Assembly (NCBI GenBank): GCA_018865545.1
Contig: GCA_018865545.1_3633.1
Reading direction: 5' to 3' (one strand)
Length of the DNA: 64,000 nt
Origin: a phage
A program made the position numbers and the translations under genes. Below the pieces are notes generated by a model that worked only from the letters and a program-made list of their open reading frames with translations, ran no database searches and was not told where the DNA came from. Below are positions 9,663 through 64,000 of this stretch, piece after piece (within the stretch, counting starts at the first letter, position 1; every line of letters begins with the position of its first letter).

Positions 9663-9680
9663 GATTAAGGTGAAATAGTT

Positions 9681-12678: not shown

Positions 12679-12874
12679 AATTAAACAAGGTTGTTTATAC
12701 AAGTCTAAATTATCTTGGGATCCAGAGCAGAAATACCTTGTTACTGCCGTTGGTTTAAATCATGTCTTGATTACTGACTACCCTTTGATTAAAATTAACG
12801 AGGGTTATTTAGAGCACTGTTTAACATACAAACAGTTCAAAGAAGACTTTATCTATGTTGGGGAGGTAGAATAA
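12665..12874 (+). CDS. Hypothetical protein
   Basis: ORF, start placed at internal ATG to avoid long overlap. Confidence 0.35.
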   Translation: MEDFKIKQGCLYKSKLSWDPEQKYLVTAVGLNHVLITDYPLIKINEGYLEHCLTYKQFKEDFIYVGEVE

Positions 12875-13404
12875 TGGAACTTTCTAAATTCGCAGACTTG
12901 GTTAACCATATAGCCTCTTTACGTGGGAAACAATATCAGGATCCAGACACTAAAGTAACAATTGTTATTCATTCCCCAAGTACTGTTGGAGCAACACCTT
13001 CGGTTGATGTTCAATCTATACATGCAGGATTCGATTGGGATAGTGGACAAATAATGATTTTCCCATCTCAACCACTCACTGTGCTCTCAAAAGAGCAAGT
13101 AGAGGCCATTTGTGAAAGTGTTCATAAAGGACAATCTTGGCACGCTTTTCAAGAATACAAAAGACATAAGGAAGAAATTGAAAAAGCACAGGCTCGTATT
13201 AAAGAGCTTGAAGAAGATCTTGGAAATATAAAACTTGTTGCTTCGGGTCTGCTCTCTGAATATCTCATGAATAAAGGTACTGATCTGGAATTTATCGCCT
13301 GTGTGACTCCATCGAAAAACACAATAGGTAATGGTGGTGTGTGGGATATGTGGCGAAAACTGGATAAGATGATTGGAGATAAAGATGAAAAATCGCAAAG
13401 CTAA
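12874..13404 (+). CDS. Hypothetical protein
   Basis: 176 aa ORF with coiled-coil-like stretch (EEIEKAQARIKELEEDLGN). Confidence 0.45.
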   Translation: MELSKFADLVNHIASLRGKQYQDPDTKVTIVIHSPSTVGATPSVDVQSIHAGFDWDSGQIMIFPSQPLTVLSKEQVEAICESVHKGQSWHAFQEYKRHKEEIEKAQARIKELEEDLGNIKLVASGLLSEYLMNKGTDLEFIACVTPSKNTIGNGGVWDMWRKLDKMIGDKDEKSQS

Positions 13405-13594
13405 AATCCTTCTCCTGCCAAGGAAAAGGGAATCCCAAGTATTAAAAGTAAGCAATAGACGTGTTGTTTTATTTAAGTATTATGGCGCAATGGTTGCCGG
13501 AGAGAGAAAAAAGTTAAGCATAAAACAAAAGATTAAATACAGGAAACTCGAAAAAATATTTAATAATGCAATGGCAAAATTGAGGAATAACTAG
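13385..13594 (+). CDS. Hypothetical small basic protein
   Basis: ORF, Lys/Arg-rich; ATG 13385 after ggaga. Confidence 0.35.
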   Translation: MKNRKAKILLLPRKRESQVLKVSNRRVVLFKYYGAMVAGERKKLSIKQKIKYRKLEKIFNNAMAKLRNN

Positions 13595-13888
13595 ATGACC
13601 AAAGAAATGTGGGAACATCACGAGGATTTGTTTGGTGAAAACCAAGTTATTGTTAAAGGTAGTCTTGAGAAAGAGGGAAACGGAATGGAGAGCTACTCCC
13701 CAATCTGTACCGCTGAAAACGGGAATCTAGCTTTGGCTATTGCAATGTGTCCCTTGATTGTGGATGCTCTCGAACAAGCCCTACCATATGTAAAAGCGGC
13801 AGCAAAAACTGATGGACATGCCAACGGAACTTATCAGCTTGCAGCTAACATTGTTTCTGACTGGAAGAGATATATGAATAAAGGATAG
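13595..13888 (+). CDS. Hypothetical protein
   Basis: 97 aa ORF. Confidence 0.45.
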   Translation: MTKEMWEHHEDLFGENQVIVKGSLEKEGNGMESYSPICTAENGNLALAIAMCPLIVDALEQALPYVKAAAKTDGHANGTYQLAANIVSDWKRYMNKG

Positions 13889-13892
13889 AAAC

Positions 13893-14249
13893 ATGATGTC
13901 TTTTTTAGAGTGGGTCCAGGTGCATAATAACTGGTTCCCTGCTTTATCGTTTTATGTGTTGTGTTCTATTTGGGCTTTCATTTTATCGTATAAAGGGACA
14001 TGGAAACACGTTGTTGTCTCTTTTGTTATGTTCGTTATTCTTGGGGCAACAACTATTAACTACTTTCTCCTTTACGAGGATGGCTACAAAGAGTACACAA
14101 AAAACTGGGAATCGTGCACAACACAAAAAGCATTGGATGAAATGTATGTCTTCGATAATGTAAAAGAGAAATGTATGAAGCCTGTTGTTGGCTTTGTACC
14201 AACAGAGAGCGTAGATATACTGGAAATTAAAAATGGAGATTGGACATGA
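13893..14249 (+). CDS. Hypothetical membrane protein
   Basis: 118 aa; two hydrophobic segments (WFPALSFYVLCSIWAFILS, VVSFVMFVILGATTINYFLL). Confidence 0.45.
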   Translation: MMSFLEWVQVHNNWFPALSFYVLCSIWAFILSYKGTWKHVVVSFVMFVILGATTINYFLLYEDGYKEYTKNWESCTTQKALDEMYVFDNVKEKCMKPVVGFVPTESVDILEIKNGDWT

Positions 14250-14521
14250 CAAACAAAAAGTTAACAGGTGCACAACTTGTTGAGAATCTCAAAGAGAAAC
14301 TTCGCAACAACCCCTCTTTGGAAGAGGAATTGCTACTTAAATATTTCGAAGATAATGTGGATATGCTCCCTGTGGAATATGGTTGTCCAGAGGGTTTCCA
14401 CAAAGCATTTCGACAAGTGGATGTGTGTAAGAAAGGCTATCAAGATATGGTTATTTGGAGTATCCTTTCAGGAGGGGATTCGGAAAGGGTTTGGGAAGTT
14501 ATAGAAGAGTTTTTCTCTTGA
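14240..14521 (+). CDS. Hypothetical protein
   Basis: 93 aa ORF. Confidence 0.45.
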   Translation: MDMTNKKLTGAQLVENLKEKLRNNPSLEEELLLKYFEDNVDMLPVEYGCPEGFHKAFRQVDVCKKGYQDMVIWSILSGGDSERVWEVIEEFFS

Positions 14522-14528
14522 GGTTTTT

Positions 14529-14720
14529 ATGAGATTTTTATCTGCGTTAAGCATTCTCTTCATAGCGTTGAAGTTGTGTGAGATTATAGACTGGTCTTGG
14601 TGGTTAGTTCTTGCCCCTCTATACCTACCATGGGCAATTGTTGTCATGCCCCCTTTGATTATAGCGGTTACAGCATTTGTCCTGTCTTTTCTCCAAGAAA
14701 AAGACAAAAAATCATCTTGA
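14529..14720 (+). CDS. Small membrane protein
   Basis: 63 aa, almost entirely hydrophobic (two predicted TM helices). Confidence 0.4.
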   Translation: MRFLSALSILFIALKLCEIIDWSWWLVLAPLYLPWAIVVMPPLIIAVTAFVLSFLQEKDKKSS

Positions 14721-14745
14721 CATACATGCATGCATAGTGTAAGAT
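14717..14745 (+). promoter_or_regulatory. Sigma70-like promoter candidate (TTGACA-N17-TAAGAT)
   Basis: ttgaca 14717-14722, 17 nt spacer, taagat 14740-14745, about 30 nt upstream of ORF 14777. Confidence 0.4.
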
Positions 14746-14776
14746 GTGATACTCAACAACCTTGTAAGGAATAGAC

Positions 14777-15118
14777 ATGCCTAAAGAAAAACAAACACCT
14801 GAAAATAAAGAGGATATCCGTTTTCTTGATCTTGATGAAGGGCAGTTTGGAACAATCGTATACTTGTCCAGCGCCAGTCACCAGATGGGAACAGTAATCG
14901 GGTCGAAAGAAATTCGAGAAGAGATGCTAAAGCTCATCCAAAGTGGTAACTATAAAACGGTAGAGGATGCAATTTCATGGATCCGAGGACACCGCAACAA
15001 TTTGTTGAAATTAAATACTGCTTCCACTTTTGCATTGAACCTGCTAAATCAAGTTGAAGATTTAGTGGTAGATAAAATGTTGAGCGTTGGAAACGAAACT
15101 GCTGAAGGCGTTAAGTAA
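14777..15118 (+). CDS. Hypothetical protein
   Basis: 113 aa ORF downstream of promoter candidate. Confidence 0.5.
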   Translation: MPKEKQTPENKEDIRFLDLDEGQFGTIVYLSSASHQMGTVIGSKEIREEMLKLIQSGNYKTVEDAISWIRGHRNNLLKLNTASTFALNLLNQVEDLVVDKMLSVGNETAEGVK

Positions 15119-15132
15119 TAAAAGGAGAGAGA

Positions 15133-16350
15133 ATGAGCGTAATCAATGAATTTAAGAATCCAATCAACGGAAAAGTTGATTATTTTGCGAAAGGTTTTAT
15201 CAAGTATGTTAATATTCGTCCAGTGAAAAACGCTGACGCAGATGGTATCCGGCGTACCCATATCCCTGCTCGCAACGGGCAACCAGCTAAAGTTATTGAG
15301 GCTACGCACTCAATCAGTTTCCTGATGCAAGAGGTTGACGATAATAACAACGTTATTGACCCACAGAGCCAAGGTGAGTGGATTTCTATGGGTGAGAAAA
15401 AACTTCACCCAAGCCATGCAGACAAAATTCAGGTGAAATTTGATTCTGGATACAAAGATATTGTGGCGGGGATGGTTGTTTCTTTCCCTCTCAAAATTAC
15501 TAAGAGTGGGGATAAAACGTATACAAACGGCACTTTAAACGGAAAGACCTTCAGCATTCTCGATGAAAGTAAAGTTGGTCAAAGTGCTCCTCGCCAGCAA
15601 TCTTCGACCCAATCACCTGCAAATGCCCAAGTTAAAGGCACTAAAATTTATGGTGAGATTGCTGCAATCGTTGGCAATGTGGTGACAGTTAATGATGAGA
15701 AGAATGGTCAAGGAAACCTTGTCCTCACAGATGAGCAATTGGCGCAAGTTGTAGTAGGTGGTCGTGTCACTGCGATTGTTAACCTAAGTGATGGTACGGT
15801 CTTAAGTGGATTTAAAGCCTATGGTCCTGCTGGGCAGACTAAGAAGTCATCTGGCGGCTATGATGCTTTAGGTGTTGCTTGTGGACACGGCATCAACGGT
15901 GTGAAGGAACTCATTAAAGCTGGTTTTAAGATCGAGGATCGTCTCTCTGCCGCGAAGATGGTTCACAACGCTACAGTAGCTATGAAGGCTTTTGTGGCAG
16001 AGAAAACAGGAAAAGATGTGGAATCTAATGCGGTGGGCGCTAGTGCGGGTAATGCTATCTTAGTGGCTTGTGCTTTGTATCATCAAACCGATAAACTAAC
16101 AGAAGATAGTATTCTGAATGCCGCCAAAGATGTTTACCTAACACTATCAGAGCCGTTTTACGAGTTCTTATCTAAAGGTGATGGGAAGACACAACAAAAG
16201 AACAAACAGCATGCTAAGGAACCTTTGAACAGTTCCAATAGCGATATTCCGAATATGGAATCGCCAGCACCTGAATTTGACTATGATGAAGATATCCCTT
16301 TCAGTCCTGTAGGTCTACAGTACGGTAAACATCGGGTATACATCCTGTAA
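15133..16350 (+). CDS. Putative single-stranded DNA-binding protein-like
   Basis: 405 aa; acidic FDYDEDIPF near C-terminus resembles the SSB C-terminal tip (DDDIPF) but is followed by 15 more residues; RBS aaggagaga. Confidence 0.35.
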   Translation: MSVINEFKNPINGKVDYFAKGFIKYVNIRPVKNADADGIRRTHIPARNGQPAKVIEATHSISFLMQEVDDNNNVIDPQSQGEWISMGEKKLHPSHADKIQVKFDSGYKDIVAGMVVSFPLKITKSGDKTYTNGTLNGKTFSILDESKVGQSAPRQQSSTQSPANAQVKGTKIYGEIAAIVGNVVTVNDEKNGQGNLVLTDEQLAQVVVGGRVTAIVNLSDGTVLSGFKAYGPAGQTKKSSGGYDALGVACGHGINGVKELIKAGFKIEDRLSAAKMVHNATVAMKAFVAEKTGKDVESNAVGASAGNAILVACALYHQTDKLTEDSILNAAKDVYLTLSEPFYEFLSKGDGKTQQKNKQHAKEPLNSSNSDIPNMESPAPEFDYDEDIPFSPVGLQYGKHRVYIL

Positions 16351-16363
16351 ATACCTCATAAAA

Positions 16364-16390
16364 ATGGAGGGGAGATCCCCTCCATTTTTT
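16364..16390 (+). terminator. Rho-independent terminator
   Basis: ggagggg-agat-cccctcc hairpin followed by attttttg, right after stop of 15133-16350. Confidence 0.7.
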
Positions 16391-16535
16391 GATTAAAGTC
16401 TAGGTGTTTATTAGGGATTTATACAACAGTGGCGATCTTATGATAATTACATACTCCTATAAAGTGTGGATTATTTGTAATAAATATTTACTTGTAAAAA
16501 TAAGTGATGTCCTACAAAATTATAAAAGAGCTTTA

Positions 16536-17168
16536 TTAAACCACCGTTACTGTTTCTTTGTGGGTGGCAGAAACATCTTTGTATGTACCTTTTAATCCAC
16601 ATTGTGCCTCACCAGAGGATATGCATGTAAATATCCCGCTAGGAGCCATGCTTATGATGTTAGGTGTTTCTGCAAACCCATAGACAGAGAAGTCATCTTC
16701 TTCCATGATCTCTGGCGGGAATACATCAAAACCAACCATATTAGGGGATGGGTTGCCAGGATCAAAAGAAGGATCGCCTCTATAGACAAACCAGAACCTG
16801 TCCCCGATTGATCTATTTCCTATAGGGTCAACGTCCAATCTCAACTCTTCTACATTTCCAGTTATAACATCGGATAAAGTTATATCTCCAACTGTCTTTG
16901 CTGTCATCAATATACTGAAGTAACCTTCTGAAATAAAGGATATTTCCCCATCTTTATTAACAGAGACCGAATCCGGCGTATTAGCTTCAAAAGTTATATC
17001 ATATATATCAGCCCCTTCGGGGGAAACCGCATACGCCAGCTTTTTAGAACTACCTTTTAATGCAATACCTATAGGTTGTAAAGTTATGGATTGTGCCGCT
17101 ATCTTGTTAATAATTGTATTATAGAAACAAGGAATTGGATACATTAAACCTCCTAAAACAAAGGCCAC
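16536..17168 (-). CDS. Tail-associated protein with Ig-like (Big_2-type) domain
   Basis: 210 aa; pattern LAYAVSPEGADIYDITFEANTPDSVSVNKDGEISFISEGYFSILMTAKTVGDITL typical of bacterial Ig-like domains. Confidence 0.4.
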   Translation of the reverse strand: MAFVLGGLMYPIPCFYNTIINKIAAQSITLQPIGIALKGSSKKLAYAVSPEGADIYDITFEANTPDSVSVNKDGEISFISEGYFSILMTAKTVGDITLSDVITGNVEELRLDVDPIGNRSIGDRFWFVYRGDPSFDPGNPSPNMVGFDVFPPEIMEEDDFSVYGFAETPNIISMAPSGIFTCISSGEAQCGLKGTYKDVSATHKETVTVV

Positions 17169-53917: not shown

Positions 53918-53935
53918 GATCTATTTCCTGTTTGG

Positions 53936-54008
53936 TGTGACGGACAGGGTTCGAACCTGTGACCACCTAGTCTTCAGCAAGGCACTCTACCAACTGAGTT
54001 ACCGTCAC
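53936..54008 (-). tRNA. tRNA-Phe (GAA)
   Basis: Acceptor GTGACGG/CCGTCAC, D arm ACTC-AGTTGGTA-GAGT, anticodon loop CTGAAGA, T arm ACAGG-TTCGAAC-CCTGT; CCA encoded. Confidence 0.8.
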
Positions 54009-54016
54009 ATGATTGG

Positions 54017-54090
54017 TAGGCGATGAGGGACTCGAACCCCCAAAATTCAGGTTCTAAGCCTGACATGTATACCAATTCCATCAATCGCCC
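54017..54090 (-). tRNA. tRNA with anticodon UAG (Leu by anticodon) but short variable arm, atypical
   Basis: Acceptor GGGCGAT/ATCGCCT (G1-U72), anticodon stem TCAGG/CCTGA, loop CTTAGAA, 5 nt variable region, T arm GGGGG-TTCGAGT-CCCTC; CCA encoded. Confidence 0.5.
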
Positions 54091-54104
54091 ATTTATATCA
54101 ACAG

Positions 54105-54296
54105 TTATGGTTTTCCACGATACACAGAAATAGTTTTCCCATTGGCATTGATAACATAAGCTGTCTGATCCTCAGACAAAAACACTTTTTGGTCAATACC
54201 TGAAATAGCTATAGACTTTTGATGAGCACAATACCCAACAATTTTCCCACAAAAAATTTGTTCATCATTTGGAGATACGACTTTAACTGTTAACAT
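54105..54296 (-). CDS. Hypothetical small protein within tRNA cluster
   Basis: Start moved to internal ATG 54296 because the annotated N-terminus overlaps tRNA-Pro. Confidence 0.3.
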   Translation of the reverse strand: MLTVKVVSPNDEQIFCGKIVGYCAHQKSIAISGIDQKVFLSEDQTAYVINANGKTISVYRGKP

Positions 54297-54341
54297 GGTA
54301 TCCTCTGTACATTTCTGCTTTGATATGTATATGTTTGTTGG

Positions 54342-54416
54342 TCTGTCCGGTTGGATTTGAACCAACGACCTGATCATCCCAAGTGACCCGCGCTACCCAA
54401 GCTGCGCTACGGACAG
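54342..54416 (-). tRNA. tRNA-Pro (UGG)
   Basis: Acceptor CTGTCCG/CGGACAG, D arm GCGC-AGCTTGGGTA-GCGC, anticodon stem GGTCA/TGATC, loop CTTGGGA, T arm GTTGG-TTCAAAT-CCAAC; CCA encoded. Confidence 0.8.
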
Positions 54417-54503
54417 AGAAATGTAGATTTTAATTGTCCCAGAATCTACTAACTGGTATCGCTGGCTAGGTGATATCTGTGACTTGATTAAGTCAAGAAT
54501 TGG

Positions 54504-54591
54504 CGGTTCCTGAAGGATTCGAACCTTCGGTGGGGAGATTCCTCCCAACGGCTTAACAGGCCGTCACCATCGACCACTCGGTCAAAGAACC
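54504..54591 (-). tRNA. Type II (long variable arm) tRNA with anticodon GUU (Asn by anticodon), atypical
   Basis: Acceptor GGTTCTT/AGGAACC, 3 bp D stem with GAGTGGTCGA loop, anticodon stem ACGGC/GCCGT, loop CTGTTAA, variable hairpin GGGAG-GAAT-CTCCC, T arm GAAGG-TTCGAAT-CCTTC, discriminator G, CCA encoded. Confidence 0.5.
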
Positions 54592-54603
54592 AGAATATTT
54601 TGG

Positions 54604-54677
54604 TGGATCTGGTTAGATTCGAACTAACAATCCCTCGATTAAAAGTCGAGTGCCTTAAACCATTTGGCTACAGATCC
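54604..54677 (-). tRNA. tRNA-Lys (UUU)
   Basis: Acceptor GGATCTG/CAGATCC, anticodon stem CTCGA/TCGAG, loop CTTTTAA, T arm GTTAG-TTCGAAT-CTAAC; CCA encoded. Confidence 0.75.
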
Positions 54678-54907
54678 TTTAAATTATCTTTAAAATAGCT
54701 AATTACTCGCACATAATTAGCTATACGCAACAGCCCTCTAGGGAGGGCACACTAATGATAGATTACGATTACATGACCATCATGAGTGTTTGACTTACGC
54801 CAGTAAAGAGCGGACTGCTCTGGGGTATCGGTAAAGTGGTTACCGCCACTTGCCGAAGATTTACTCTGCTAAAGTAAGAATAACAAGCTACATTAAAGAT
54901 AACTTGG

Positions 54908-54993
54908 AGGAGGCTGACAGAATCGAACTGTCACCATATCTCTACAGCGGGACTGGGTTCAAACCAGCTTGTGCACCATGCACCCCAGCCTCC
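54908..54993 (-). tRNA. tRNA-Ser (UGA), type II, atypical D arm
   Basis: Acceptor GGAGGCT/AGCCTCC, anticodon stem GCTGG/CCAGT, loop TTTGAAC, long variable region, T arm GACAG-TTCGATT-CTGTC; D region forms a tight GTGCA/TGCAC hairpin; CCA encoded. Confidence 0.55.
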
Positions 54994-55074
54994 AAAAATT
55001 GCCTCTGCCGAGAATATACACCCAACAAAGACGGCGCTCAGGTCCGAAGAAATCTGAGCCTTGACATACAGTGG

Positions 55075-55165
55075 AGGAAGATGCCAGACTTGAACTGGCA
55101 CACCCATTTCTGGGTTACTATCTCCTTAGCAGGGAGACCCCTTACCAAATTAGGGTTAATCTTCC
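55075..55165 (-). tRNA. tRNA-Ser (GCU), type II
   Basis: Acceptor GGAAGAT/ATCTTCC, anticodon stem TCTCC/GGAGA, loop CTGCTAA, long variable arm, T arm GCCAG-TTCAAGT-CTGGC; CCA encoded. Confidence 0.65.
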
Positions 55166-55189
55166 AATACCTTAGTAATTAAAAACTGG

Positions 55190-55276
55190 CGGAGAAGGAG
55201 AGAATCGAACTCTCAAGCCGTTTTACCAGTCAGCACATTTCCAATGTGTTTTCGTCGCCAATCGATTTGCTTCTCC
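55190..55276 (-). tRNA. tRNA-Ser (GGA)-like, type II, tentative
   Basis: Acceptor GGAGAAG/CTTCTCC, T arm GAGAG-TTCGATT-CTCTC, candidate anticodon loop TTGGAAA with imperfect stem; CCA encoded; D arm not well resolved. Confidence 0.45.
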
Positions 55277-55288
55277 GTTTTAACTTGG

Positions 55289-55361
55289 CAGGGGATGGTT
55301 GATTCGAACAACCGATCACGGGGTCAAAGCCCGTTGCATTAGGCCACTATGCTAATCCCCT
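55289..55361 (-). tRNA. tRNA-Gln (UUG)
   Basis: Acceptor AGGGGAT/ATCCCCT, D arm GCAT-AGTGGCCTA-ATGC, anticodon stem ACGGG/CCCGT, loop CTTTGAC, T arm GGTTG-TTCGAAT-CAACC; CCA encoded. Confidence 0.8.
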
Positions 55362-55365
55362 TTTG

Positions 55366-55444
55366 CACGAGAGTGAGGAATCGAACCTCTTAGTCACTGG
55401 TTTTGGAGGCCAGCCTTCACCCAGTGAAGTTACGCTACTCTCAT
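55366..55444 (-). ncRNA. tRNA-like sequence, unassigned
   Basis: Acceptor-like pairing ATGAGAG/CTCTCGT and T arm GAGG-TTCGATT-CCTC, but central region forms a long CACTGG/CCAGTG helix instead of canonical D and anticodon arms. Confidence 0.3.
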
Positions 55445-55450
55445 TAAAAA

Positions 55451-56008
55451 CTATTTTCGGAAAGGACTTATGAAAAATGCCAACATCACTCTCTCTCTTG
55501 AAAAAGCTCTGTCTTCAGGAACCACACTCTTCAGTTTCCAACCGACATAAATTCGCCAGTAAAATTGTTTTCCAAACAATCTAAAAGACGGGACAAACGC
55601 GAATACACCCCACGCATTGTCATTCCACATCAACAAATAGCCTTGTTGATTATCCTCCACATCAGAGCTTACATGGATGTTTCCTTTCCACTTTGTCACA
55701 GATGTGATTTCACGTCCAAGTGCGTGATAGGAGAAATTGTAGGCTTTATTTCTCCACAACCAAGCAACTCGTTGCAGATAAACACCAAAACTCCCTATCT
55801 TACGAACTTCTGCCCATCTCTCTATGTGTCCTTTATCACCATCTATAGGATTATCATATGTTTCCATCCACCTGAAAATATAAGGTAGATGCCCTGTCTT
55901 CTCATTATAGAACGGAACAACAAAAGGAGCCAGAATAACACAGAGAACCGACATAACTGGGTCAAGAGGTGCTAACAGAATCCACGATAAATATTTCAAG
56001 TATCTCAT
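55451..56008 (-). CDS. Hypothetical membrane protein
   Basis: 185 aa; N-terminal hydrophobic helices (LSWILLAPLDPVMSVLCVILAPFVVPF); Trp-rich. Confidence 0.45.
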   Translation of the reverse strand: MRYLKYLSWILLAPLDPVMSVLCVILAPFVVPFYNEKTGHLPYIFRWMETYDNPIDGDKGHIERWAEVRKIGSFGVYLQRVAWLWRNKAYNFSYHALGREITSVTKWKGNIHVSSDVEDNQQGYLLMWNDNAWGVFAFVPSFRLFGKQFYWRIYVGWKLKSVVPEDRAFSRERVMLAFFISPFRK

Positions 56009-56235
56009 GCAGGATCAAGCCTAGATATAATGTACTGGTTTAAATCTGAATATGGGAAGATACTTTCAAAGATAACCTGTTTAAATCTGAAACCGCACAA
56101 ACCGAAAAGTACCTTCTGACACTCCCCAAAAGAACAATCTTTACCAACTTTTATCACAACCGTATCGGCAACCTGCACACTTTCTATCTCTTTAGGTTCA
56201 TGATGCCGTACTATGATTACTTTAGAAACCATCAT
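56005..56235 (-). CDS. Hypothetical protein
   Basis: 76 aa ORF overlapping downstream gene start by 4 nt. Confidence 0.4.
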   Translation of the reverse strand: MMVSKVIIVRHHEPKEIESVQVADTVVIKVGKDCSFGECQKVLFGLCGFRFKQVIFESIFPYSDLNQYIISRLDPA

Positions 56236-56363
56236 ACTCGTCCGTATTAAAGCCTTCTACTATAGATAGTAGATGTCTAGGGTTGGACCGCAAACTCAAC
56301 CCCATGGAATTTGTTACGGTCTTCAGTTGACCCAAGCGGATTTCATTGACATCTTTTAACTGG

Positions 56364-56435
56364 AGCATCCAGAGGGTATCGAACCCTCGACTACAGCTTG
56401 GAAGGCTGTAGTTTTCCCAATTAAACTATGGATGC
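56364..56435 (-). tRNA. tRNA-Gly (UCC)
   Basis: Acceptor GCATCCA/TGGATGC, D stem GTTT/AAAC, anticodon stem ACAGC/GCTGT, loop CTTCCAA, T arm GAGGG-TTCGATA-CCCTC, discriminator U as expected for Gly; CCA encoded. Confidence 0.8.
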
Positions 56436-56443
56436 ATATTTGG

Positions 56444-56516
56444 TGGGAGTGGTAGGCTCTGCCCCTACGTCCTCTCGATTATCGGTCGAGCGATCTACTA
56501 ACTGATCTACACTCCC
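56444..56516 (-). tRNA. tRNA-Ile (GAU) with unusual T loop
   Basis: Acceptor GGGAGTG/CACTCCC, D arm GATC-AGTTAGTA-GATC, anticodon stem CTCGA/TCGAG, loop CCGATAA, T stem GTAGG/CCTAC but loop GGCAGAG lacks TTC; CCA encoded. Confidence 0.6.
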
Positions 56517-56587
56517 AAACTGTACTGACCCAACAACCACGATTGGAGGGTATCGTCACACATCAAAGCCAGTACAGATTCAGTTGG

Positions 56588-56674
56588 TGTGCCGTGATAG
56601 AGTCGAACTACCCGAGTCCCTTTCGAGACAGGAGATTTACAGTCTCCCCCGCTACCCCTACGGTCTAACGACAC
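56588..56674 (-). tRNA. tRNA-Tyr (GUA), type II
   Basis: Acceptor GTGTCGT/ACGGCAC, anticodon stem GGAGA/TCTCC, loop CTGTAAA, long variable arm, T arm GGTAG-TTCGACT-CTATC; CCA encoded. Confidence 0.65.
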
Positions 56675-56675
56675 A

Positions 56676-57023
56676 TTAACCTTGTTTGAATTGAACAATA
56701 TCCGTCGAGAATGGTTTAGCTGCCTTAATAGGAGCTTTTTCTGAGTTATCTTTTTCGAGTAACTCTTCGTTTTCCTCATCAAAGTAATCAGAAAGCATCT
56801 GCTCACCTTTCTCAATAACATAACGAGCGATATTTTCTCTGATATTGTCTTTTGTATTCACATTCTTCATCAAATCCCTAAGAACCTGATGAGCTTCAGG
56901 AATCATTGCAATCAGATTCGTTTTCAAATCTAGGATATTTTTCTCTAACTGAATTGCATTAGATTCCTCTTTCAGAGGACGACCTTTCCCTCTTCTACGT
57001 TTTGTAAGCTGCTTAGTAGCCAT
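56676..57023 (-). CDS. Hypothetical protein
   Basis: Start moved to internal ATG 57023 (MATKQLTKRRRGKGRP...) because the annotated 5' part overlaps tRNA-Cys. Confidence 0.45.
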   Translation of the reverse strand: MATKQLTKRRRGKGRPLKEESNAIQLEKNILDLKTNLIAMIPEAHQVLRDLMKNVNTKDNIRENIARYVIEKGEQMLSDYFDEENEELLEKDNSEKAPIKAAKPFSTDIVQFKQG

Positions 57024-57111
57024 TTTAAAACCCCACTTAATGATATTATCAAATAAAAACATATCTGTCAAGTGGTATTTTAACATATTTACCAAGAAAT
57101 TGAAAGTTTGG

Positions 57112-57185
57112 AGCACGGTGTCGGACTTGAACCGACATATATCTGTTTTGCAGACAGATCCGTAACCAAATTCCGGCAACCGTGC
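57112..57185 (-). tRNA. tRNA-Cys (GCA)
   Basis: Acceptor GCACGGT/ACCGTGC, anticodon stem TCTGT/ACAGA, loop CTGCAAA, T arm GTCGG-TTCAAGT-CCGAC, discriminator U as expected for Cys; CCA encoded. Confidence 0.8.
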
Positions 57186-57264
57186 AATAAGTACCCCGAG
57201 TAGAGAACCTATAGAGTGGGTCTTACGAGCCGCGCTGACGATTCTCAAGTTGGGGTTAATCTGG

Positions 57265-57338
57265 TCGAGGAGACAGGATTCGAACCTGTGACCTACGGCT
57301 TAGAAGGCCGCTGCTCTATCCAACTGAGCTACACCCCG
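57265..57338 (-). tRNA. tRNA-Arg (UCU)
   Basis: D arm GCTC-AGTTGGATA-GAGC, anticodon stem GCGGC/GCCGT, loop CTTCTAA, T arm ACAGG-TTCGAAT-CCTGT; acceptor has one U-U mismatch; CCA encoded. Confidence 0.7.
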
Positions 57339-57538
57339 AGAATAAGAATGCTTTATAGTGTATGGTTACTCAACCTCACCCCAACTTCCACAGTTGGTGC
57401 TCTACGAGCATGACTACGTTTGAAATCAACGTTGCGCACCGATAGCTTTCTCACGCATTGTATGCCTCATTCCCAACAAATGCTGATCAGGCATTTATAT
57501 CGAATAATATAAGCTAATACACTATAAAACAAACTTGT

Positions 57539-57635
57539 GGCTGGGTGATGGAATCGAACCACCTATGTATTCAACGGCTAGCCCGTCTATTTTCAGGATT
57601 ATAAATCCTCGCCCTTGCCAAAGGGCTTACCCAGC
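57539..57635 (-). ncRNA. tRNA-like sequence with oversized variable region, anticodon uncertain (possibly UAU)
   Basis: Acceptor GCTGGGT/ACCCAGC, perfect D arm GCCC-TTTGGCAA-GGGC, T arm GGTGG-TTCGATT-CCATC, but about 30 nt between anticodon arm and T arm. Confidence 0.35.
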
Positions 57636-57640
57636 ATTGG

Positions 57641-57712
57641 TGCTCGCAGCAGGTTTCGAACCTGCAACCCCCTGCTTACAAGGCAGGTGCTCTACCGTTG
57701 AGCTATACGAGC
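57641..57712 (-). tRNA. tRNA-Thr (UGU)
   Basis: Acceptor GCTCGTA/TGCGAGC, D arm GCTC-AACGGTA-GAGC, anticodon stem CCTGC/GCAGG, loop CTTGTAA, T arm GCAGG-TTCGAAA-CCTGC; CCA encoded. Confidence 0.8.
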
Positions 57713-58077
57713 AATAAGACATTGCTTCCGATTAACAGCCTTGAGGCTTTACAGACCATATCTTGTGAGCCATAACCTGTGCCAAGGATTTCAGATGATA
57801 AACGAAATTTTATCTTTCAAGAATTAACTTTCAAGTTTCATCTTTTACATTTGACCATTGACCTTTATTGTATGAACTTTTACTTAGTGGAAACAACAAG
57901 GCATCTTCGTGTGCCTCGCTGCATCTATGTCCTGTATTATCCTCATACATATACGATACATGGTGGGGAATATTTAACCTCCAATCCCCAGGAGGCAAGA
58001 TGATGTAAACTTCGTTAATCAAAAGCAATGTTTTAAATTTCAAAACAAAGGAACGATAATGATATTATCAGAGCCTT

Positions 58078-58725
58078 TTAGAGAGAGTGCTCAATCTCAA
58101 TTTCTGTCTTAGCGTTTGACTCAGACAACGCAAAATCAACGTTAGACAAGAAATCTTCAATCTCTTCTTCAAGAGAACGAATCTTAGAAGCCAGTTCAAG
58201 AGGATCCACAACCGATGGTGTGTTCATCATTCGAATGGGAGCTTCCACAGTCTTAATCTGCTCTGCATCTGGCGCTTTATCACGTTGGATATATGGCGCT
58301 CTGGCATTTTCAAGTTTATCTTCCAGAGATTTTTCTTCTTTTGCCAGAAGAAGCTGTGCAGAAGCACGCTGTGCACAAAGTTTGTTTAACAACTCTTGTT
58401 TAAAGCAAATCGTCCGTTTGCGTTCGATTGCCTCAGCAACTGTCATAGACACCTTACCAATTTTGACAATTGTCTCAGCATTAGACTTGACAATTTTTGC
58501 CTTCAGTTCATCGCGAACTGCCAAGAGGTCTTGCAGACTTTGATAGTCGTTGATCGCAGATTTCTTAAAATCATCAACAGAGCCGATATAACCAGGAATC
58601 TTACAATTATTCTCAGTTCCTTTTGCAATCTTAATACATTCAAGGTTATAAATACGCTTATTGATCTTATCTTCAATCTTAGAGATAGAAGCAAGTGCAC
58701 GAGTTACGGAAATCTTAGTAGACAT
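58078..58725 (-). CDS. Hypothetical protein
   Basis: 215 aa ORF, predicted coiled-coil segments. Confidence 0.45.
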   Translation of the reverse strand: MSTKISVTRALASISKIEDKINKRIYNLECIKIAKGTENNCKIPGYIGSVDDFKKSAINDYQSLQDLLAVRDELKAKIVKSNAETIVKIGKVSMTVAEAIERKRTICFKQELLNKLCAQRASAQLLLAKEEKSLEDKLENARAPYIQRDKAPDAEQIKTVEAPIRMMNTPSVVDPLELASKIRSLEEEIEDFLSNVDFALSESNAKTEIEIEHSL

Positions 58726-59066
58726 TCAATCTCTCCTATGTAAATTAGCTTTGATAAAGTAACTATACAGAAAAACAAAAACTATGTCAAGAAAAATTTT
58801 AATCTTTTACAGCATCTTTTATAGAATCACAAAGATCTTGGACAAGATCAGATGTCGGTGACAAAATCATCTCGTCTGCTGCTGCTATAGCATCTGATGC
58901 TAAATCAACAAACGGAGTTGTTACCGCAGCAGTCACTTCAACAGCCGTTGTTGTTACATCGCTTGCAATCTTAAGCAAAGATCCTATCATAATCTCAACC
59001 CTCCTGAATGTCCGTGATTCCCTTTGTTTAATGACGCTGGCTCACGGTGGCACTCTCGTCAGTAAA

Positions 59067-59390
59067 TTATTTTTTAGTTTTCTTAACGTTTTCTACAGGA
59101 GTGCTTGTTTTCTGTTTCACTTCTCGTTCACGCTTTGTTTTCCCAGTACGGATACGATAGGAAGCAGAAATCACTTCACCACCAATGACACGAGACACAG
59201 ATTCATAATACATTTCAGTATTACCGTCTTCATCTTTGCGTTTTTTCAGAACTGCTACAGTTTGCGTTTTGCCACCAAGACGCACATCGTGCGGTGCAGA
59301 ATGTGTCTGCGTGGATTTTGATTCAAACTGAAAAGGTTGCTTGATCGCCTCGATAGCTGATACCTTTTTAGCAGACTGTTTCTTAGCCAT
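59067..59390 (-). CDS. Hypothetical basic protein (possible nucleic-acid binding)
   Basis: 107 aa, Lys/Arg-rich N- and C-termini. Confidence 0.4.
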   Translation of the reverse strand: MAKKQSAKKVSAIEAIKQPFQFESKSTQTHSAPHDVRLGGKTQTVAVLKKRKDEDGNTEMYYESVSRVIGGEVISASYRIRTGKTKREREVKQKTSTPVENVKKTKK

Positions 59391-59445
59391 TAAGTTTTCT
59401 CCTCCGAAAACAATAAACCTAGTTTATTTCGTGTGCCACATTTGG

Positions 59446-59518
59446 TGGCCCCTGCTGGACTTGAACCAGCGACCAAGCGATTATGAGTCACCTGCTCTAA
59501 CCACTGAGCTAAGGGGCC
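59446..59518 (-). tRNA. tRNA-Met (CAU), second copy (initiator, elongator or Ile-lysidine type not resolved)
   Basis: Acceptor GGCCCCT/AGGGGCC, D arm GCTC-AGTGGTTA-GAGC, anticodon loop CTCATAA, T arm GCTGG-TTCAAGT-CCAGC; CCA encoded. Confidence 0.75.
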
Positions 59519-62210: not shown

Positions 62211-63014
62211 TTAAAAATTTTCTGTCCAGTCGTAATACGCATAAATTTCGTCAACACCACCGTCGAGAATAAATTCTTTCCCACGAGAGAAAATTCCATG
62301 CGTAACATACAAAATAACACGTTTTGCACCAGCAGCTTTCAAGGCTTGAGCTAAGTTTGTAAACGTAAACCCACCATCGCAGATATCATCGACAATCAGG
62401 CATGTCTTCCCATCGACATCACCAAACACTGTTGTACCTGTGATTGCCCCTGTCGAAACATCACGGACTTTACCAGCCTCCACCACACACAAATCCAAAG
62501 CATCAGCAACTTTCTGGGCCTTCTTGCGTGCTCCTGCATCTGGAGCAATCAGAACAAGTGATTTAAGCAGGTTAAAATCAAAATTCATTCCAAGAAACAA
62601 CTCCGCTTGAGAACGAATTTTCACGTTATCAATCAGTGCTGCGGATACGTCACTGTGCGGGTCATCGACAATGACTTTGTGGAAACCAAGTGAATTAATC
62701 ATTGTGGCAAAGACTTTCACCGATAGAGATTCTCCAGGGTTCATAACTCGGTCTTGTCGAGCATACGGAATGTACGGCAGGTGTAAAACCTTTTCCACAC
62801 CAACATCCAAATTGCCAAGACGATTAACTGCATCAACAAGCAGTGCCAAACACATCACATCCTGTGAGTTCTTGAGTCTAGCGAAGATATCAACAAAACC
62901 AATCGAACCATGCGGAACATGACGCATATCGATCTTAATCTGCTCCTCACCACCACTAAATGTGAAATGGTCAACTGGCACATGTAGCTTGTTCAAACTC
63001 AAACGAATATTCAT
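62211..63014 (-). CDS. prs: Ribose-phosphate pyrophosphokinase (PRPP synthetase)
   Basis: 267 aa; CLIVDDICDGGFTF (PRPP-binding DDI-DGG-T motif) and overall Prs-like layout. Confidence 0.8.
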   Translation of the reverse strand: MNIRLSLNKLHVPVDHFTFSGGEEQIKIDMRHVPHGSIGFVDIFARLKNSQDVMCLALLVDAVNRLGNLDVGVEKVLHLPYIPYARQDRVMNPGESLSVKVFATMINSLGFHKVIVDDPHSDVSAALIDNVKIRSQAELFLGMNFDFNLLKSLVLIAPDAGARKKAQKVADALDLCVVEAGKVRDVSTGAITGTTVFGDVDGKTCLIVDDICDGGFTFTNLAQALKAAGAKRVILYVTHGIFSRGKEFILDGGVDEIYAYYDWTENF

Positions 63015-63436
63015 GATTTATCTCCTCTGATACGATTGACGATAATATAATTTCTTGGTTTCACGTTACCATCAGAATCCTGAAATCCTGATCTAACACG
63101 CCTGATATAACCAAAGCTCTCCATCCGGGACAGAAATTCAGACACTTTGGTTCGTGAGTTTTCATTCCACCCCAACAGGCCACACAAGGATTGTTGTGAC
63201 GGAAAGAATACCAGTTCCCCACCCAGAGGGTTCAGATTCTTGAAATACTCGTACCTCCACAACAAGCGTATCAGTCTTTGCAGATCGCTTGGTGATAAGC
63301 GTTCATCAAAAACCCACTCTGTCGGGACAGCGATGTACGACCCAGGTTTCGGATTTACATGGAAACCCCCAACAATAGATTTCAAGGCAAACTCCGGTGT
63401 GTAATCCAACACCGAGAATGCTACCCATAACCCCAC
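63011..63436 (-). CDS. Hypothetical protein
   Basis: 141 aa ORF, 4 nt overlap with prs-like gene (operon). Confidence 0.45.
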   Translation of the reverse strand: MGLWVAFSVLDYTPEFALKSIVGGFHVNPKPGSYIAVPTEWVFDERLSPSDLQRLIRLLWRYEYFKNLNPLGGELVFFPSQQSLCGLLGWNENSRTKVSEFLSRMESFGYIRRVRSGFQDSDGNVKPRNYIIVNRIRGDKS

Positions 63437-63439
63437 ACA

Positions 63440-63800
63440 ATGTCAACCCTCCCATATGTCCCCATTTCAGGGACATGGGTATGTCCCCGTTTTGGGGACA
63501 CAATACTAACTTATCAAATTAAACTAACTTATAAGATCTATTAAATATAATACTACGTATTATAATACTATGATCTATTTAATATATTATATATTATACT
63601 ACGTATAATATAATTTAATATGATCTAATATAATATAAATTATATAATATAATACTACGTATTATATATTATAATATATTATATAAAATTTATTTAAAAT
63701 ACATTAAGTCTTGAGGAATGTCAAGACTTGATTTTAAATATTTTTGTTGTTATGATTCGATTGAGTCGAATCGTATGGTTCGATGATTTCGAATCATAGA
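63440..63800. repeat. AT-rich noncoding region with tandem hairpins, direct repeats and iteron-like inverted repeats
   Basis: Two similar hairpins (atgtcccc...ggggacat at 63456-63476 and 63481-63501); three copies of aatactacgtat(t)ataata; hairpin aagtcttga...tcaagactt; four gattcga/tcgaatc motifs at 63754-63797; no ORF. Confidence 0.5.
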
Positions 63801-64000
63801 GTTCATAGTGTTTTGCCTGAAAGTGTGAGTCGATGAGACTCTTCAGGCAATACGTGAGTGTGTAAGATGCTCACTGCGCTGATAGCTTGTGACCATCTAA
63901 CCCTCATGAGCCATTCTGAGATAAACCCACATCAACAAACCCTACAGGTTTGTCTCTGTGTGTTGATCTCAATCATGGATTCGGGTTGTCACAAGTCACT

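What the first reader, a model, noticed from the sequence alone, without database searches (positions are those of the whole stretch)
63440..63800. AT-rich repeat-dense noncoding region after the NAD salvage operon
Within about 360 nt there are two tandem, nearly identical hairpins (atgtcccc-loop-ggggacat), three direct repeats of aatactacgtat(t)ataata embedded in almost pure A/T, a perfect 9 bp inverted repeat (aagtcttga/tcaagactt) and four gattcga/tcgaatc motifs at 63754-63797. This looks like a replication origin, packaging site or genome-end region rather than a simple intergenic spacer.
Basis: seen in the sequence. Interest (0 to 1): 0.5.

Follow-up and report, generated by a model that had tools for sequence, protein, structure and literature searches.

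The report
Origin-like control region of a phage
The repeat-dense AT-rich stretch is the control hub between two oppositely transcribed early gene blocks of an rV5-like coliphage, and it probably holds a replication origin built from palindromic binding sites for the small initiator-like protein encoded next to it, though origin activity has never been tested.

Summary
One point was wrong. The NAD-salvage genes lie on the minus strand, so the region is upstream of that operon, at the strand switch of an Avunavirus-like Vequintavirinae phage (95% identical to Av-05).

Across 13 lineages, one recognition-helix residue covaries with the palindrome: Arg with TGTnCC, Gln with TATnCC. Six of these were checked blind. 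I conclude this protein binds the palindromes.

Next to them lies the least stable duplex in the 64 kb (89% AT, z +7). It is flanked by predicted promoters and by operator-like GATTCGA palindromes.

rV5 has four similar palindromes plus an AT-rich tract beside a gene annotated as a replication initiation protein.

Best reading: an iteron-type origin embedded in an autoregulated divergent promoter region (about 0.5). The main rival is transcriptional control only (about 0.4). A packaging site or genome end is unsupported. No experimental data exist.

The parts
63011..63385 (-). Gene for a 124-aa winged-helix protein (PHROG 8453), the first gene of the leftward operon that continues with PRPP synthetase and NadV. 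The ORF is open up to GTG 63436. TTG 63385 is the likelier start.
63394..63415 (-). Palindrome CGGTGT-N8-ACACCG in the predicted 5' UTR, partly covering the GGAG ribosome-binding site. It occupies the same position as the third, promoter-downstream palindrome of PVP-SE1, KB57, Hena1 and L015, but has a different sequence.
63418..63446 (-). Predicted sigma-70 promoter of the winged-helix/NAD operon: TTGACA-17-TAGCAT.
   Evidence: A TTGACA or TTGACT -35 sits at the same place in most relatives examined; L023 has TTGACC and L021 has none. Not mapped experimentally.
63456..63476 (.). Proximal iteron-like palindrome ATGTCCC-CATTTCA-GGGACAT, centred about -55 from the predicted transcription start.
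   Evidence: Covaries with the recognition helix of the adjacent protein.
63481..63500 (.). Distal iteron-like palindrome (A)TGTCCCC-GTTTT-GGGGACA, 25 bp from the first.
63501..63540 (.). Conserved spacer module CAATACTAACTTATCAAATTAAACTAACTTATAAGATC, containing ACTAACTTAT x2 and ending in the first GATC.
   Evidence: D5. Almost the same sequence occurs in PVP-SE1, KB57, Hena1, L017 and L023, although the neighbouring proteins are only about 40-65% identical.
63530..63700 (.). AT-rich block (about 89% AT) made of three degenerate tandem units. Each unit has a GATC (63535, 63572, 63622) and a TACGTA-centred palindrome (cores at 63550, 63596, 63652). Candidate DNA-unwinding element.
   Evidence: It is the lowest nearest-neighbour duplex stability in the window: z +7.1 for 200 bp, next best +3.3. 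Unit number differs between assemblies, 2 or 3.
63696..63724 (-). Predicted leftward promoter TTGACA-17-TATTTT. Its -35 lies in the right arm of the 9-bp inverted repeat, and it would transcribe across the AT-rich block and the palindromes.
   Evidence: Analogous TTGACA promoters point into the AT-rich tract in PVP-SE1 and KB57. Prediction only.
63706..63729 (.). Perfect 9-bp inverted repeat AAGTCTTGA-N6-TCAAGACTT, formed by two opposed -35-like AAGTCTTGA(CA) elements.
   Evidence: The same AAGTCTTGACA is the -35 region of the divergent promoter in LTH01 and A73.
63728..63756 (+). Predicted rightward promoter TTGATT-17-TGtTATGAT (extended -10) for the block of small early genes.
   Evidence: The gene layout to the right comes from Av-05 and TH18. 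Prediction only.
63751..63797 (+). Two tandem palindromes: TATGATTCGA-TTGAG-TCGAATCGTA and TGGTTCGA-TGATT-TCGAATCA. They cover the -10 and about +1 to +33 of the rightward promoter. They could be operators, or could form a 5'-terminal RNA hairpin.
   Evidence: D3; unique in the window and in 63 kb of Av-05. Invariant in four assemblies.
63763..64000 (+). Start of a roughly 375-nt strongly structured untranslated leader that runs past the window end to the first rightward gene.
   Evidence: Nearly invariant among the window, Av-05, TH18, L025 and L026. RNA fold of the Av-05 copy gives z -5.4. No Rfam match.

Best explanation
The region is the control hub at the strand switch between two divergently transcribed early gene blocks of an Avunavirus-like (rV5/PVP-SE1-related) phage. 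It most likely doubles as an iteron-type replication origin.

Proposed mechanism:
- Dimers of the 124-aa winged-helix protein encoded immediately to the left bind the two tandem palindromes TGTCCC(C)-A/T tract-(G)GGGACA. These lie 10 bp upstream of the protein's own TTGACA promoter.
- This binding autoregulates that promoter.
- By analogy with RepA_N and lambda-type origins, it also positions a nucleoprotein complex next to the roughly 170-bp, 89% AT repeat block. That block is the easiest place in the 64 kb to melt.
- Predicted promoters on the far side would supply transcriptional activation or an R-loop. One reads leftward through the AT block and one reads rightward.
- The rightward promoter is overlapped by a second, unrelated pair of GATTCGA palindromes that look like a repressor operator.

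Shown: the motifs, their uniqueness, their conservation across genera, the fold of the protein, and the protein-site covariation. Inferred: DNA binding itself, promoter activity, autoregulation and, above all, origin firing.
For: (1) The anatomy is non-random, and each motif occurs only at this locus in the sequence searched.

(2) The module is recognisable in Seunavirus, Mydovirus, Henunavirus, Certrevirus, Septuagintavirus, Serratia phages and metagenomic contigs. Its order is: GATC-bearing AT/T-rich tract, ATAAGTTAGT repeats, GTATTGT, then 1-3 palindromes. In most of these, the palindromes are followed by a TTGAC(A/T) -35 and the winged-helix gene as first gene; L023 has TTGACC, L021 has no TTGAC(A/T), and CR3/phiTE show only a degenerate palindrome.

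(3) The palindromes are alike within a genome and change in concert between genomes. Recognition-helix residue 78 is Arg where the half-site is TGTnCC (9 lineages) and Gln where it is TATnCC (4 lineages), symmetric in both arms. At least two independent switches are implied, and six loci were checked blind.

(5) That paper describes RepA_N iterons as semi-palindromic repeats whose inverted repeats converge on a poly-A tract. This is the format seen here: AAAAC in the window, and TTTTT or AAAAAA in relatives.

(6) PHROG scans of family members give weak but consistent hits to replication initiation and DnaD-like loader families. Named BFVD fold hits are mostly phage replication initiators.

(7) In rV5, four palindromes TGTCCGT-N3-ACGGACA at 21-22 bp spacing, followed by an AT-rich GATC tract, lie just downstream of gp075, which is annotated as a replication initiation protein. 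They are therefore not in that gene's promoter. This 378-bp spacer is 95% or more identical in 91 of 119 Vequintavirus genomes. L015 also carries the module among co-directional genes.

(8) The AT block is the global duplex-stability minimum and coincides with the GC-skew sign change.
Against: - No experiment of any kind bears on this locus. The rV5 authors looked for an origin by skew analysis and could not separate it from transcription direction (PMC3606486).
- The window has only 2 palindromes, and some relatives have 1. Classical iteron origins have 4 or more.
- The proximal palindrome always abuts the -35, and a third site lies over the 5' UTR in several genera. That is what simple autoregulation predicts.
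- The protein is only the DNA-binding domain. It has no C-terminal domain to recruit a replisome.
- By sequence it is a generic winged helix. Pfam hits are sub-threshold TrmB, Crp, MarR and Cdc6_C, with no RepA_N match. Nothing is significant against PDB sequences.
- Homology to rV5 gp075 is not established.
- A different, roughly 2-kb non-coding region tolerates no transposon insertions in the Vequintavirus Bas54. It has a positional counterpart in Av-05 and could be the real origin.
- There is no DnaA box or IHF consensus.
- GATC enrichment is modest, P = 0.16 in the window against the flanks.
Confidence: 0.5

Rival explanations
1. Transcription control only. The winged-helix protein is an autoregulator (activator or repressor) of its own early operon, and the palindromes are its operators. 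The AT-rich block is upstream curved or UP-element DNA, or a cluster of early promoters between two divergent units. The GATTCGA palindromes are a second operator. No replication starts here.
For: The proximal palindrome is always 4-21 bp upstream of the -35, or overlaps it. A third copy lies between -10 and the ribosome-binding site in PVP-SE1, KB57, Hena1 and L015. Sequence profiles see only generic regulator-type winged helices. The protein lacks any domain beyond the DNA-binding fold. Predicted sigma-70 promoters fill the region. The rV5 paper expected bidirectional promoters at this junction.
Against: The fold ranks RepA_N, ORC and DnaD-type initiator domains above all transcription factors in two independent models. 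In rV5 the four palindromes and the AT tract sit downstream of the gene, not at its promoter. A 170-bp stretch at 89% AT with internal palindromes is far more than an UP element needs, and it is the stability minimum of the 64 kb. Autoregulation and origin function coexist in many Rep systems, so this rival does not exclude the origin reading.
Confidence: 0.4
2. Packaging (pac/cos) site or physical genome end.
For: Several draft assemblies of close relatives break inside or next to this region. These are 18-1-2, 19-1-2 and 24-2-1 and metagenome contigs L026 and L027.
Against: The breaks fall in 11% G+C tandem-repeat DNA. Low coverage and repeat collapse would be expected to cause such breaks, so they are not evidence for a terminus. 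L026 breaks in the leader rather than the AT block. In complete records the locus lies mid-genome: Av-05 at 13.5 kb of a circular record, PVP-SE1 at 75 kb, KB57 at 71 kb, rV5 at 65 kb. It is at an early-gene divergence point, not beside terminase genes. Scaffold L025 (137,934 bp) runs straight through it.
Confidence: 0.03
3. The palindromes act as nucleic-acid hairpins rather than protein sites: intrinsic terminators, RNA processing sites, or single-strand initiation signals for a primase.
For: Each folds as ssDNA better than shuffles, z -3.8 to -4.4. The 9-bp inverted repeat is flagged as terminator-like on the minus strand.
Against: No U-tract follows the GTCCCC hairpins on either strand. 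The two copies in one genome share the same arm sequence, and both arms change in step with one amino acid of the neighbouring protein across 13 lineages. That is the signature of sequence-specific protein recognition, not of a generic stem. The two copies can equally well cross-pair, so the fold is not specific.
Confidence: 0.04
4. A host-type origin that is oriC-like and DnaA-dependent, with Dam/SeqA control through the GATC sites.
For: GATC clusters in an AT/T-rich tract recur in relatives: LTH01 has 6 in 60 bp, and A73, CR3 and PVP-SE1 also show them. Motifs 1-2 mismatches from the oriC 13-mer GATCTnTTnTTTT occur in PVP-SE1, KB57, LTH01 and L020.
Against: No DnaA box with 1 mismatch or fewer lies in the AT block or palindromes. 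The single hit in 63386-64000 matches the background rate. The window's three GATC-led 13-mers each have 3 mismatches, which is background level. GATC enrichment is not significant in the window.
Confidence: 0.03

Closest known systems
RepA_N-type theta origins (staphylococcal pSK41/pTZ2162 RepA; Vibrio cholerae PLE RepA and its ori)
   Different: There is no sequence match to Pfam RepA_N. The protein has no C-terminal domain. Only two sites are present. The sites lie upstream of the gene beside its promoter, not inside the rep gene. A very long AT-rich repeat block is attached. The host is an enterobacterial lytic myovirus.
Phage lambda ori and O protein
   Same: Both have tandem dyad-symmetric sites with C-rich and G-rich arms around an A-rich centre. 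Lambda has ATCCCTCAAAACGAGGGA x4 at 20-24 bp spacing; the window has TGTCCCCAAAACGGGGACA. In both, the sites lie directly next to an AT-rich tract, a winged-helix-type dimeric binder is proposed, and nearby transcription could activate the origin.
   Different: Lambda has four iterons located inside the O gene. The protein here shows no detectable similarity to O (hhalign probability 0.2%). No P-like helicase loader gene lies next to it.
rV5 gp075 ('replication initiation protein') with its downstream four-palindrome and AT-rich spacer
   Same: Same subfamily and same genome neighbourhood. It has a small winged-helix protein (116 aa; HTH_36/DUF6945), palindromes with the same TGTCC...GGACA arms, and an adjacent AT-rich tract with GATC and ACT(T/A)AACTTAT.
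   Different: The proteins are not demonstrably homologous: 27% identity over 56 aa, and hhalign probability 4%. rV5 has four sites at 21-22 bp spacing, placed downstream of the gene among co-directional genes.
Autoregulated iteron plasmids (F RepE, R6K pi, pPS10 RepA): the initiator binds an inverted repeat at its own promoter as well as the origin
   Same: A winged-helix initiator gene lies directly beside its binding sites, its own promoter and an AT-rich region. Binding of inverted repeats by dimers next to or over the promoter fits autorepression. This comparison rests on established knowledge and was not tested here.
   Different: Those systems use direct-repeat iterons bound by monomers for initiation, plus DnaA boxes. 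Here only palindromes are seen and no DnaA box is present.
T7 primary origin and T4 oriF/oriG (promoter plus downstream AT-rich unwinding element)
   Same: Predicted promoters point into or flank an easily melted AT-rich tract. The comparison rests on established knowledge.
   Different: Those origins need no sequence-specific initiator protein. Here a cognate DNA-binding protein and its sites are part of the conserved module.

Membership tests
RepA_N-type initiator and iteron origin | N-terminal DNA-binding domain with the RepA_N/DnaD-NTD winged-helix fold | tested here: met
RepA_N-type initiator and iteron origin | Sequence membership in Pfam RepA_N (PF06970) | tested here: not met
   No RepA_N hit for the window protein or for 17 homologues, even at E <= 1. 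Only sub-threshold generic winged-helix families appear.
RepA_N-type initiator and iteron origin | Iterons are semi-palindromic repeats whose inverted arms converge on a poly-A tract | tested here: met
   Window: TGTCCCC-AAAAC-GGGGACA and ATGTCCC-TGAAATG-GGGACAT. Relatives have TTTTTG, TTTTT or AAAAAA centres.
RepA_N-type initiator and iteron origin | Several (typically 4 or more) tandem iterons | tested here: not met
   The window and Av-05 have two. Relatives have 1-3. Only rV5, with a different protein, has four.
RepA_N-type initiator and iteron origin | C-terminal domain that recruits host or helper replication proteins | tested here: not met
   The 124-aa protein is the winged-helix domain alone. 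Some distant homologues (233-253 aa) carry an unannotated C-terminal extension.
RepA_N-type initiator and iteron origin | Initiator binds the repeats and the fragment supports replication | not testable with these tools
   Binding is inferred from Arg/Gln to G/A covariation in 13 lineages. Origin activity is untested.
Lambda-type origin | O-family initiator (Phage_rep_O) | tested here: not met
   hhalign against the lambda O N-terminus gives probability 0.2%. No Pfam hit.
Lambda-type origin | Tandem dyad-symmetric iterons adjoining an AT-rich tract | tested here: met
   Two palindromes 25 bp apart, then a 40-bp conserved spacer, then the 170-bp AT block. Lambda was read for comparison.
Lambda-type origin | Origin located inside the initiator gene | tested here: not met
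   The sites are 70-115 bp upstream of the gene start.
oriC-like / DnaA-dependent origin | DnaA boxes (TTWTNCACA) | tested here: not met
   None lies in the palindrome/AT block. The one 1-mismatch hit, at 63859, matches the background rate of 3.4 per kb.
oriC-like / DnaA-dependent origin | GATC-led 13-mer unwinding repeats and a GATC cluster | tested here: inconclusive
   The window 13-mers have 3 mismatches each, which is background. Relatives have 1-2-mismatch copies concentrated in the spacer. GATC enrichment is significant only in LTH01, A73 and CR3.
Packaging site / genome terminus | Coincides with physical ends or lies beside terminase genes | tested here: not met
   The locus is mid-record in complete genomes and in a 137.9-kb scaffold, and it is flanked by early genes. 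Read-level termini are not testable here.
Intrinsic terminator | G+C-rich stem followed by a U tract | tested here: not met
   The GTCCCC palindromes have no T run on either strand. Only the 9-bp inverted repeat is weakly terminator-like, and no gene reads into it.

The most novel reading that the evidence does not exclude
PHROG 8453 proteins are stand-alone, NTD-only relatives of RepA_N initiators that mark the primary replication origin of most Vequintavirinae. That would make this the first origin defined for this therapeutically used phage group, and a RepA_N-like system in lytic phages of Enterobacteria. Specificity would be set largely by one recognition-helix residue: Arg reads TGT and Gln reads TAT. 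A protein with no recruitment domain would then have to open an origin together with flanking transcription or a phage SF1B/PIF1-type helicase, as proposed for the PLE satellite.
Probability: 0.4. Interest if true: 0.6.

Novelty: new variant of a known kind. Interest (0 to 1): 0.45.

Why it matters
rV5-like phages (Vequintavirinae) are widely isolated and are being developed for therapy and biocontrol, yet no origin of replication is known for them. The rV5 genome paper looked for one by skew analysis and could not find it.

This work gives a concrete, testable candidate: a 300-bp fragment plus one small protein. It also gives a simple predicted recognition rule, Arg/Gln at one position matching G/A in the site, which a single-residue swap could verify.

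If confirmed, it would extend RepA_N-like initiation to lytic phages of Gram-negative bacteria. RepA_N systems are rare in Gram-negatives. It would also provide a handle for engineering or tracking replication in these phages.

If instead the locus is only an autoregulated promoter region, it still defines the early divergent promoters and two operator sets that the rV5 paper expected but did not find.

Tried and rejected
- **Rfam** on the whole intergenic region of Av-05: only a chance miRNA hit.
- **Lambda O homology:** none.
- **PDB sequence search** with the family profile: only generic regulators at E > 0.03.
- **Pfam RepA_N:** no hit.
- **DnaA boxes, IHF consensus and oriC 13-mers:** absent or at background level in the window.
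- **GATC over-representation:** weaker than it looks by eye. It is not significant against the flanks in the window, so I do not lean on Dam/SeqA.
- **Apparent deletion of the second palindrome and the repeats in phage TH18:** this is an artefact. The TH18 record length (133,882) equals the sum of the two 18-1-2 contigs (79,447 + 54,435), and the gap falls exactly at the join.
- **Av-05's two repeat units versus three here:** this may reflect its assembly from 36-nt reads. Two metagenome assemblies also differ in unit number, so copy number is best called variable or uncertain.
- **The rV5 2.6-kb non-coding box:** no counterpart at the window's own convergent junction, where the gap at 16350-16536 is only 186 bp. 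It is conserved only within Vequintavirus.
- **Literature searches** for iterons or origins in rV5, PVP-SE1 or Vequintavirinae: nothing found. The PVP-SE1 paper is not held.

Full report
**1. Observation check**

Reading 62400-64000 with the repeat finder confirms every motif.
- Two tandem palindromes lie at 63456-63476 (ATGTCCC-CATTTCA-GGGACAT) and 63481-63500 ((A)TGTCCCC-GTTTT-GGGGACA), 25 bp apart. The pattern occurs nowhere else in the window and never in 100 shuffles.
- ATACTACGTAT occurs exactly three times, at 63550, 63596 and 63652. Each copy is the core of an 8-10-bp-arm palindrome.
- The surrounding 200 bp are 11% G+C and are by far the most AT-rich part of the window.
- The perfect 9-bp inverted repeat is at 63706-63729.
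- The four GATTCGA/TCGAATC words are two tandem palindromes at 63751-63797.

**2. Context**

The window is a Vequintavirinae phage, 95% identical here to Escherichia phage Av-05 (Avunavirus).

The genes on the left are all on the minus strand. They are the 141/124-aa ORF, PRPP synthetase, NadV and a 15-tRNA cluster. In Av-05 and TH18 the genes on the right are on the plus strand, and the first starts about 140 bp beyond the window end.

The region is therefore a roughly 750-bp divergent intergenic region upstream of the NAD-salvage operon, not after it. GC skew changes sign there. It corresponds to the neighbourhood of the rV5 gene 81/82 divergent junction. The rV5 authors expected bidirectional promoters there but did not find them, and their skew-based search for an origin only tracked transcription direction (PMC3606486).

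**3. Anatomy, left to right (plus-strand coordinates)**

- **Winged-helix gene.** Its likely start is TTG 63385. A GGAG-N6-start arrangement aligns with PVP-SE1 and KB57.
- **5'-UTR palindrome** at 63394-63415.
- **Leftward operon promoter** TTGACA-17-TAGCAT at 63446-63418.
- **The two GTCCCC palindromes,** centred about -55 and -80 from the predicted start.
- **A 40-bp conserved spacer** with ACTAACTTAT x2.
- **The roughly 170-bp AT block,** made of three degenerate units. Each has a GATC and a TACGTA palindrome.
- **The 9-bp inverted repeat.** Its right arm carries the -35 of a predicted leftward promoter (TTGACA-17-TATTTT, 63724-63696) that would transcribe through the AT block.
- **A back-to-back rightward promoter** TTGATT-17-TGtTATGAT at 63728-63756.
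- **The two GATTCGA palindromes,** covering its -10 and about +1 to +33.
- **A roughly 375-nt leader** that is almost invariant among five assemblies and folds far better than shuffles (z -5.4).

Nearest-neighbour duplex stability reaches its minimum for the whole 64 kb at 63507-63706 (z +7.1; the next best is +3.3). All promoter assignments are consensus predictions.

**4. Comparative evidence**

The homologue of the left-hand gene is again the first gene after a 270-560-bp spacer in many relatives. These are PVP-SE1, KB57, CR3, Hena1, phiTE, LTH01, A73, Kashira/ABPH49 and several metagenomic contigs.

Read towards the gene, these spacers share an order: a GATC-bearing AT/T-rich tract, ATAAGTTAGT repeats, GTATTGT, then one to three palindromes. 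In most, a TTGAC(A/T) -35 follows within 4-21 bp. The exceptions are L023 (TTGACC, overlapping the second palindrome), L021 (no TTGAC(A/T) found) and CR3/phiTE (only a degenerate palindrome).

The ATAAGTTAGT module is better conserved than the flanking proteins, which are about 40-65% identical.

The expanded TACGTA repeat block, the GATTCGA palindromes and the long leader are specific to the Avunavirus group.

In rV5 the arrangement differs. gp075 is a 116-aa winged-helix protein annotated as a replication initiation protein. It is followed immediately downstream by four palindromes GTGTCCGTATCACGGACA at 21-22-bp spacing, and then by an AT-rich tract with GATC. That 378-bp spacer is 95% or more identical in 91 of 119 Vequintavirus genomes.

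In rV5 and in contig L015 the module sits among co-directional genes. It is therefore not merely a by-product of divergent promoters.

**5. The adjacent protein**

Sequence profiles see only a generic winged helix. Pfam gives sub-threshold Crp, TrmB, MarR, Cdc6_C and HTH_36 hits, and no RepA_N match. Nothing is significant against PDB sequences.

PHROG scans place the protein in family 8453 (unknown function). They also give weak, recurring hits to 'replication initiation protein' and 'DnaD-like helicase loader' families for several members.

The family is small: 19 representatives among 1.8 billion proteins.

- then ORC2, B. subtilis DnaB and DnaD-NTD;

4ro3 is the N-terminal domain of the Vibrio cholerae PLE RepA. 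That protein is an experimentally proven RepA_N initiator that binds iterons at the PLE origin (PMC7145576). [quoted passage not shown] That is the format of the palindromes here (AAAAC centre) and in relatives (TTTTT, AAAAAA, TTTTTG centres).

Named hits among viral predicted structures are mostly replication initiators.

**6. Protein-site covariation**

Within a genome the palindromes share their arms. Between genomes they differ in concert.

Aligning the recognition helix (S-R/Q-x-K-V-S) against the sites gives a clean rule.
- **Arg goes with TGTnCC...GGnACA.** This holds in the window, CR3/phiTE, Kashira, L015, L019, L020, L021, L022 and L024.
- **Gln goes with TATnCC...GGnATA.** This holds in PVP-SE1/KB57/Hena1, L017, LTH01/A73 and L023.

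That is 13 of 13 lineages, and the change is symmetric in both arms.

The identity matrix shows that the Gln groups are each closest to Arg-bearing relatives (PVP-SE1 to the window, 65%; LTH01 to CR3, 51%). At least two independent switches therefore occurred.

Six loci (L019-L024) were fetched only after I had stated the rule, and all of them fit it.

I take this as good indirect evidence that this protein binds the palindromes as a dimer. It says nothing about what the binding does.

**7. Mechanism and confidence**

The best-supported reading has two parts.
- The protein binds the palindromes next to its own promoter. Autoregulation is therefore likely, given the constant promoter-proximal position and a third site over the 5' UTR in several genera.
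- The palindromes, the AT block and the flanking promoters together form an iteron-type origin of the RepA_N/lambda kind.

I put the origin component at about 0.5. It rests on fold similarity, site format, the extreme unwinding potential, the rV5 four-iteron arrangement and single-locus occurrence. No functional data support it.

The purely transcriptional rival gets about 0.4. It is favoured by the small number of sites, the lack of any recruitment domain, and the generic sequence signature. A different, roughly 2-kb non-coding region in the Vequintavirus Bas54 also tolerates no transposon insertions. It has a positional counterpart in Av-05.

A packaging site or genome end, hairpin-only functions, and a DnaA/oriC-type origin are each unlikely, for the reasons given under rivals.

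**8. Comparison with known systems, and novelty**

The locus works like a RepA_N or lambda-type origin but is not a member of either family.
- **RepA_N:** it fails the sequence membership, iteron number, C-terminal domain and origin-inside-gene criteria.
- **Lambda:** it fails the O-protein criterion.

I found no publication describing these palindromes or an origin in this subfamily.

I rate it a new variant of a known kind, of moderate interest. It is a concrete and cheaply testable origin candidate, with a recognition rule, for a phage group that has none. It is not a surprising kind of element.

**9. Caveats**

- Promoters, transcription starts and the gene start are predictions.
- The repeat-unit number in the AT block is assembly-dependent.
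- TH18's apparent deletion is a contig-join artefact.
- GATC enrichment is modest.

Noticed in passing
window 63763-64000 (continues to about 64139; Av-05 copy L001 6839-7214): A roughly 375-nt untranslated leader or possible non-coding RNA lies downstream of the predicted rightward promoter. It is almost invariant in five assemblies, while the flanking coding DNA is about 93-95% identical. Its RNA fold gives z -5.4. It has no Rfam match, and no relatives were found outside the Avunavirus group.
   Followed up: partly
Av-05 NC_025830 26284-28202 (L018 6284-8202), outside the window: A 1.9-kb ORF-free gap lies between convergent genes. It has perfect long-range inverted repeats (16-18 nt), is not AT-rich and has no Rfam hit. 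It is the positional analogue of the rV5 'non-coding' box (104013-106618) and of the roughly 2-kb Bas54 region in which HIDEN-SEQ found no transposon insertions. It is a rival candidate for an essential cis element.
   Followed up: partly
rV5 NC_011041 about 65150-65240 (L006 1652-1737): Four tandem palindromes GTGTCCGTATCACGGACA at 21-22 bp spacing, followed by an AT-rich GATC tract, lie directly downstream of gp075 ('replication initiation protein'). The spacer is 95% or more identical in 91 of 119 Vequintavirus records. I found no publication describing it.
   Followed up: partly
ON075799.1 (phage TH18) position 79447/79448; L002 about 6578: The 'complete genome' of TH18 has exactly the summed length of the two contigs of phage 18-1-2 (79,447 + 54,435 = 133,882). 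It lacks the second palindrome and most of the AT-rich block at the join. The record appears to be a concatenation with missing sequence.
   Followed up: yes
window 63550-63662; L005, L009, L019, L021, L022, L023, L006: The pentamer CGTAG recurs in the spacer upstream of the winged-helix gene in about half the lineages. It is almost always on the gene's strand (15 versus 2 occurrences), for example GAGCGTAGCGAG in CR3, phiTE, L021 and L022, and ATACGTAGTAT x3 here. This may be a second conserved site. It is unexplained.
   Followed up: partly
window 53933-59518: A cluster of 15 tRNA genes lies on the minus strand, downstream of the NAD-salvage genes in the same leftward block. Their T-arms account for most TTCGAATC matches elsewhere in the window.
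   Followed up: no
window 16350-16536: This is the convergent junction of the plus-strand block (1-16350) and the minus-strand block. It is a short AT-rich gap and ranks third among 100-bp duplex-stability minima of the window (second locus after the finding region). It is presumably a bidirectional terminator region.
   Followed up: no
phage database hits: About 18-19 records named 'Campylobacter phage' are 87-98% identical to rV5-like coliphages in non-coding regions. 'Acinetobacter phage ABPH49' is near-identical to Serratia phage Kashira at this locus. The host labels look doubtful.
   Followed up: no
L025 (ENA scaffold, 137,934 bp) 1-944 compared with Av-05: In this close relative, the genes beyond the conserved leader are a 149-aa protein and a metallophosphatase, as in PVP-SE1, rather than the Av-05 early genes. 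Eight contigs (L026 plus seven similar places not shown) end at that boundary. This suggests a recombination or strain-variation breakpoint at the end of the leader.
   Followed up: no
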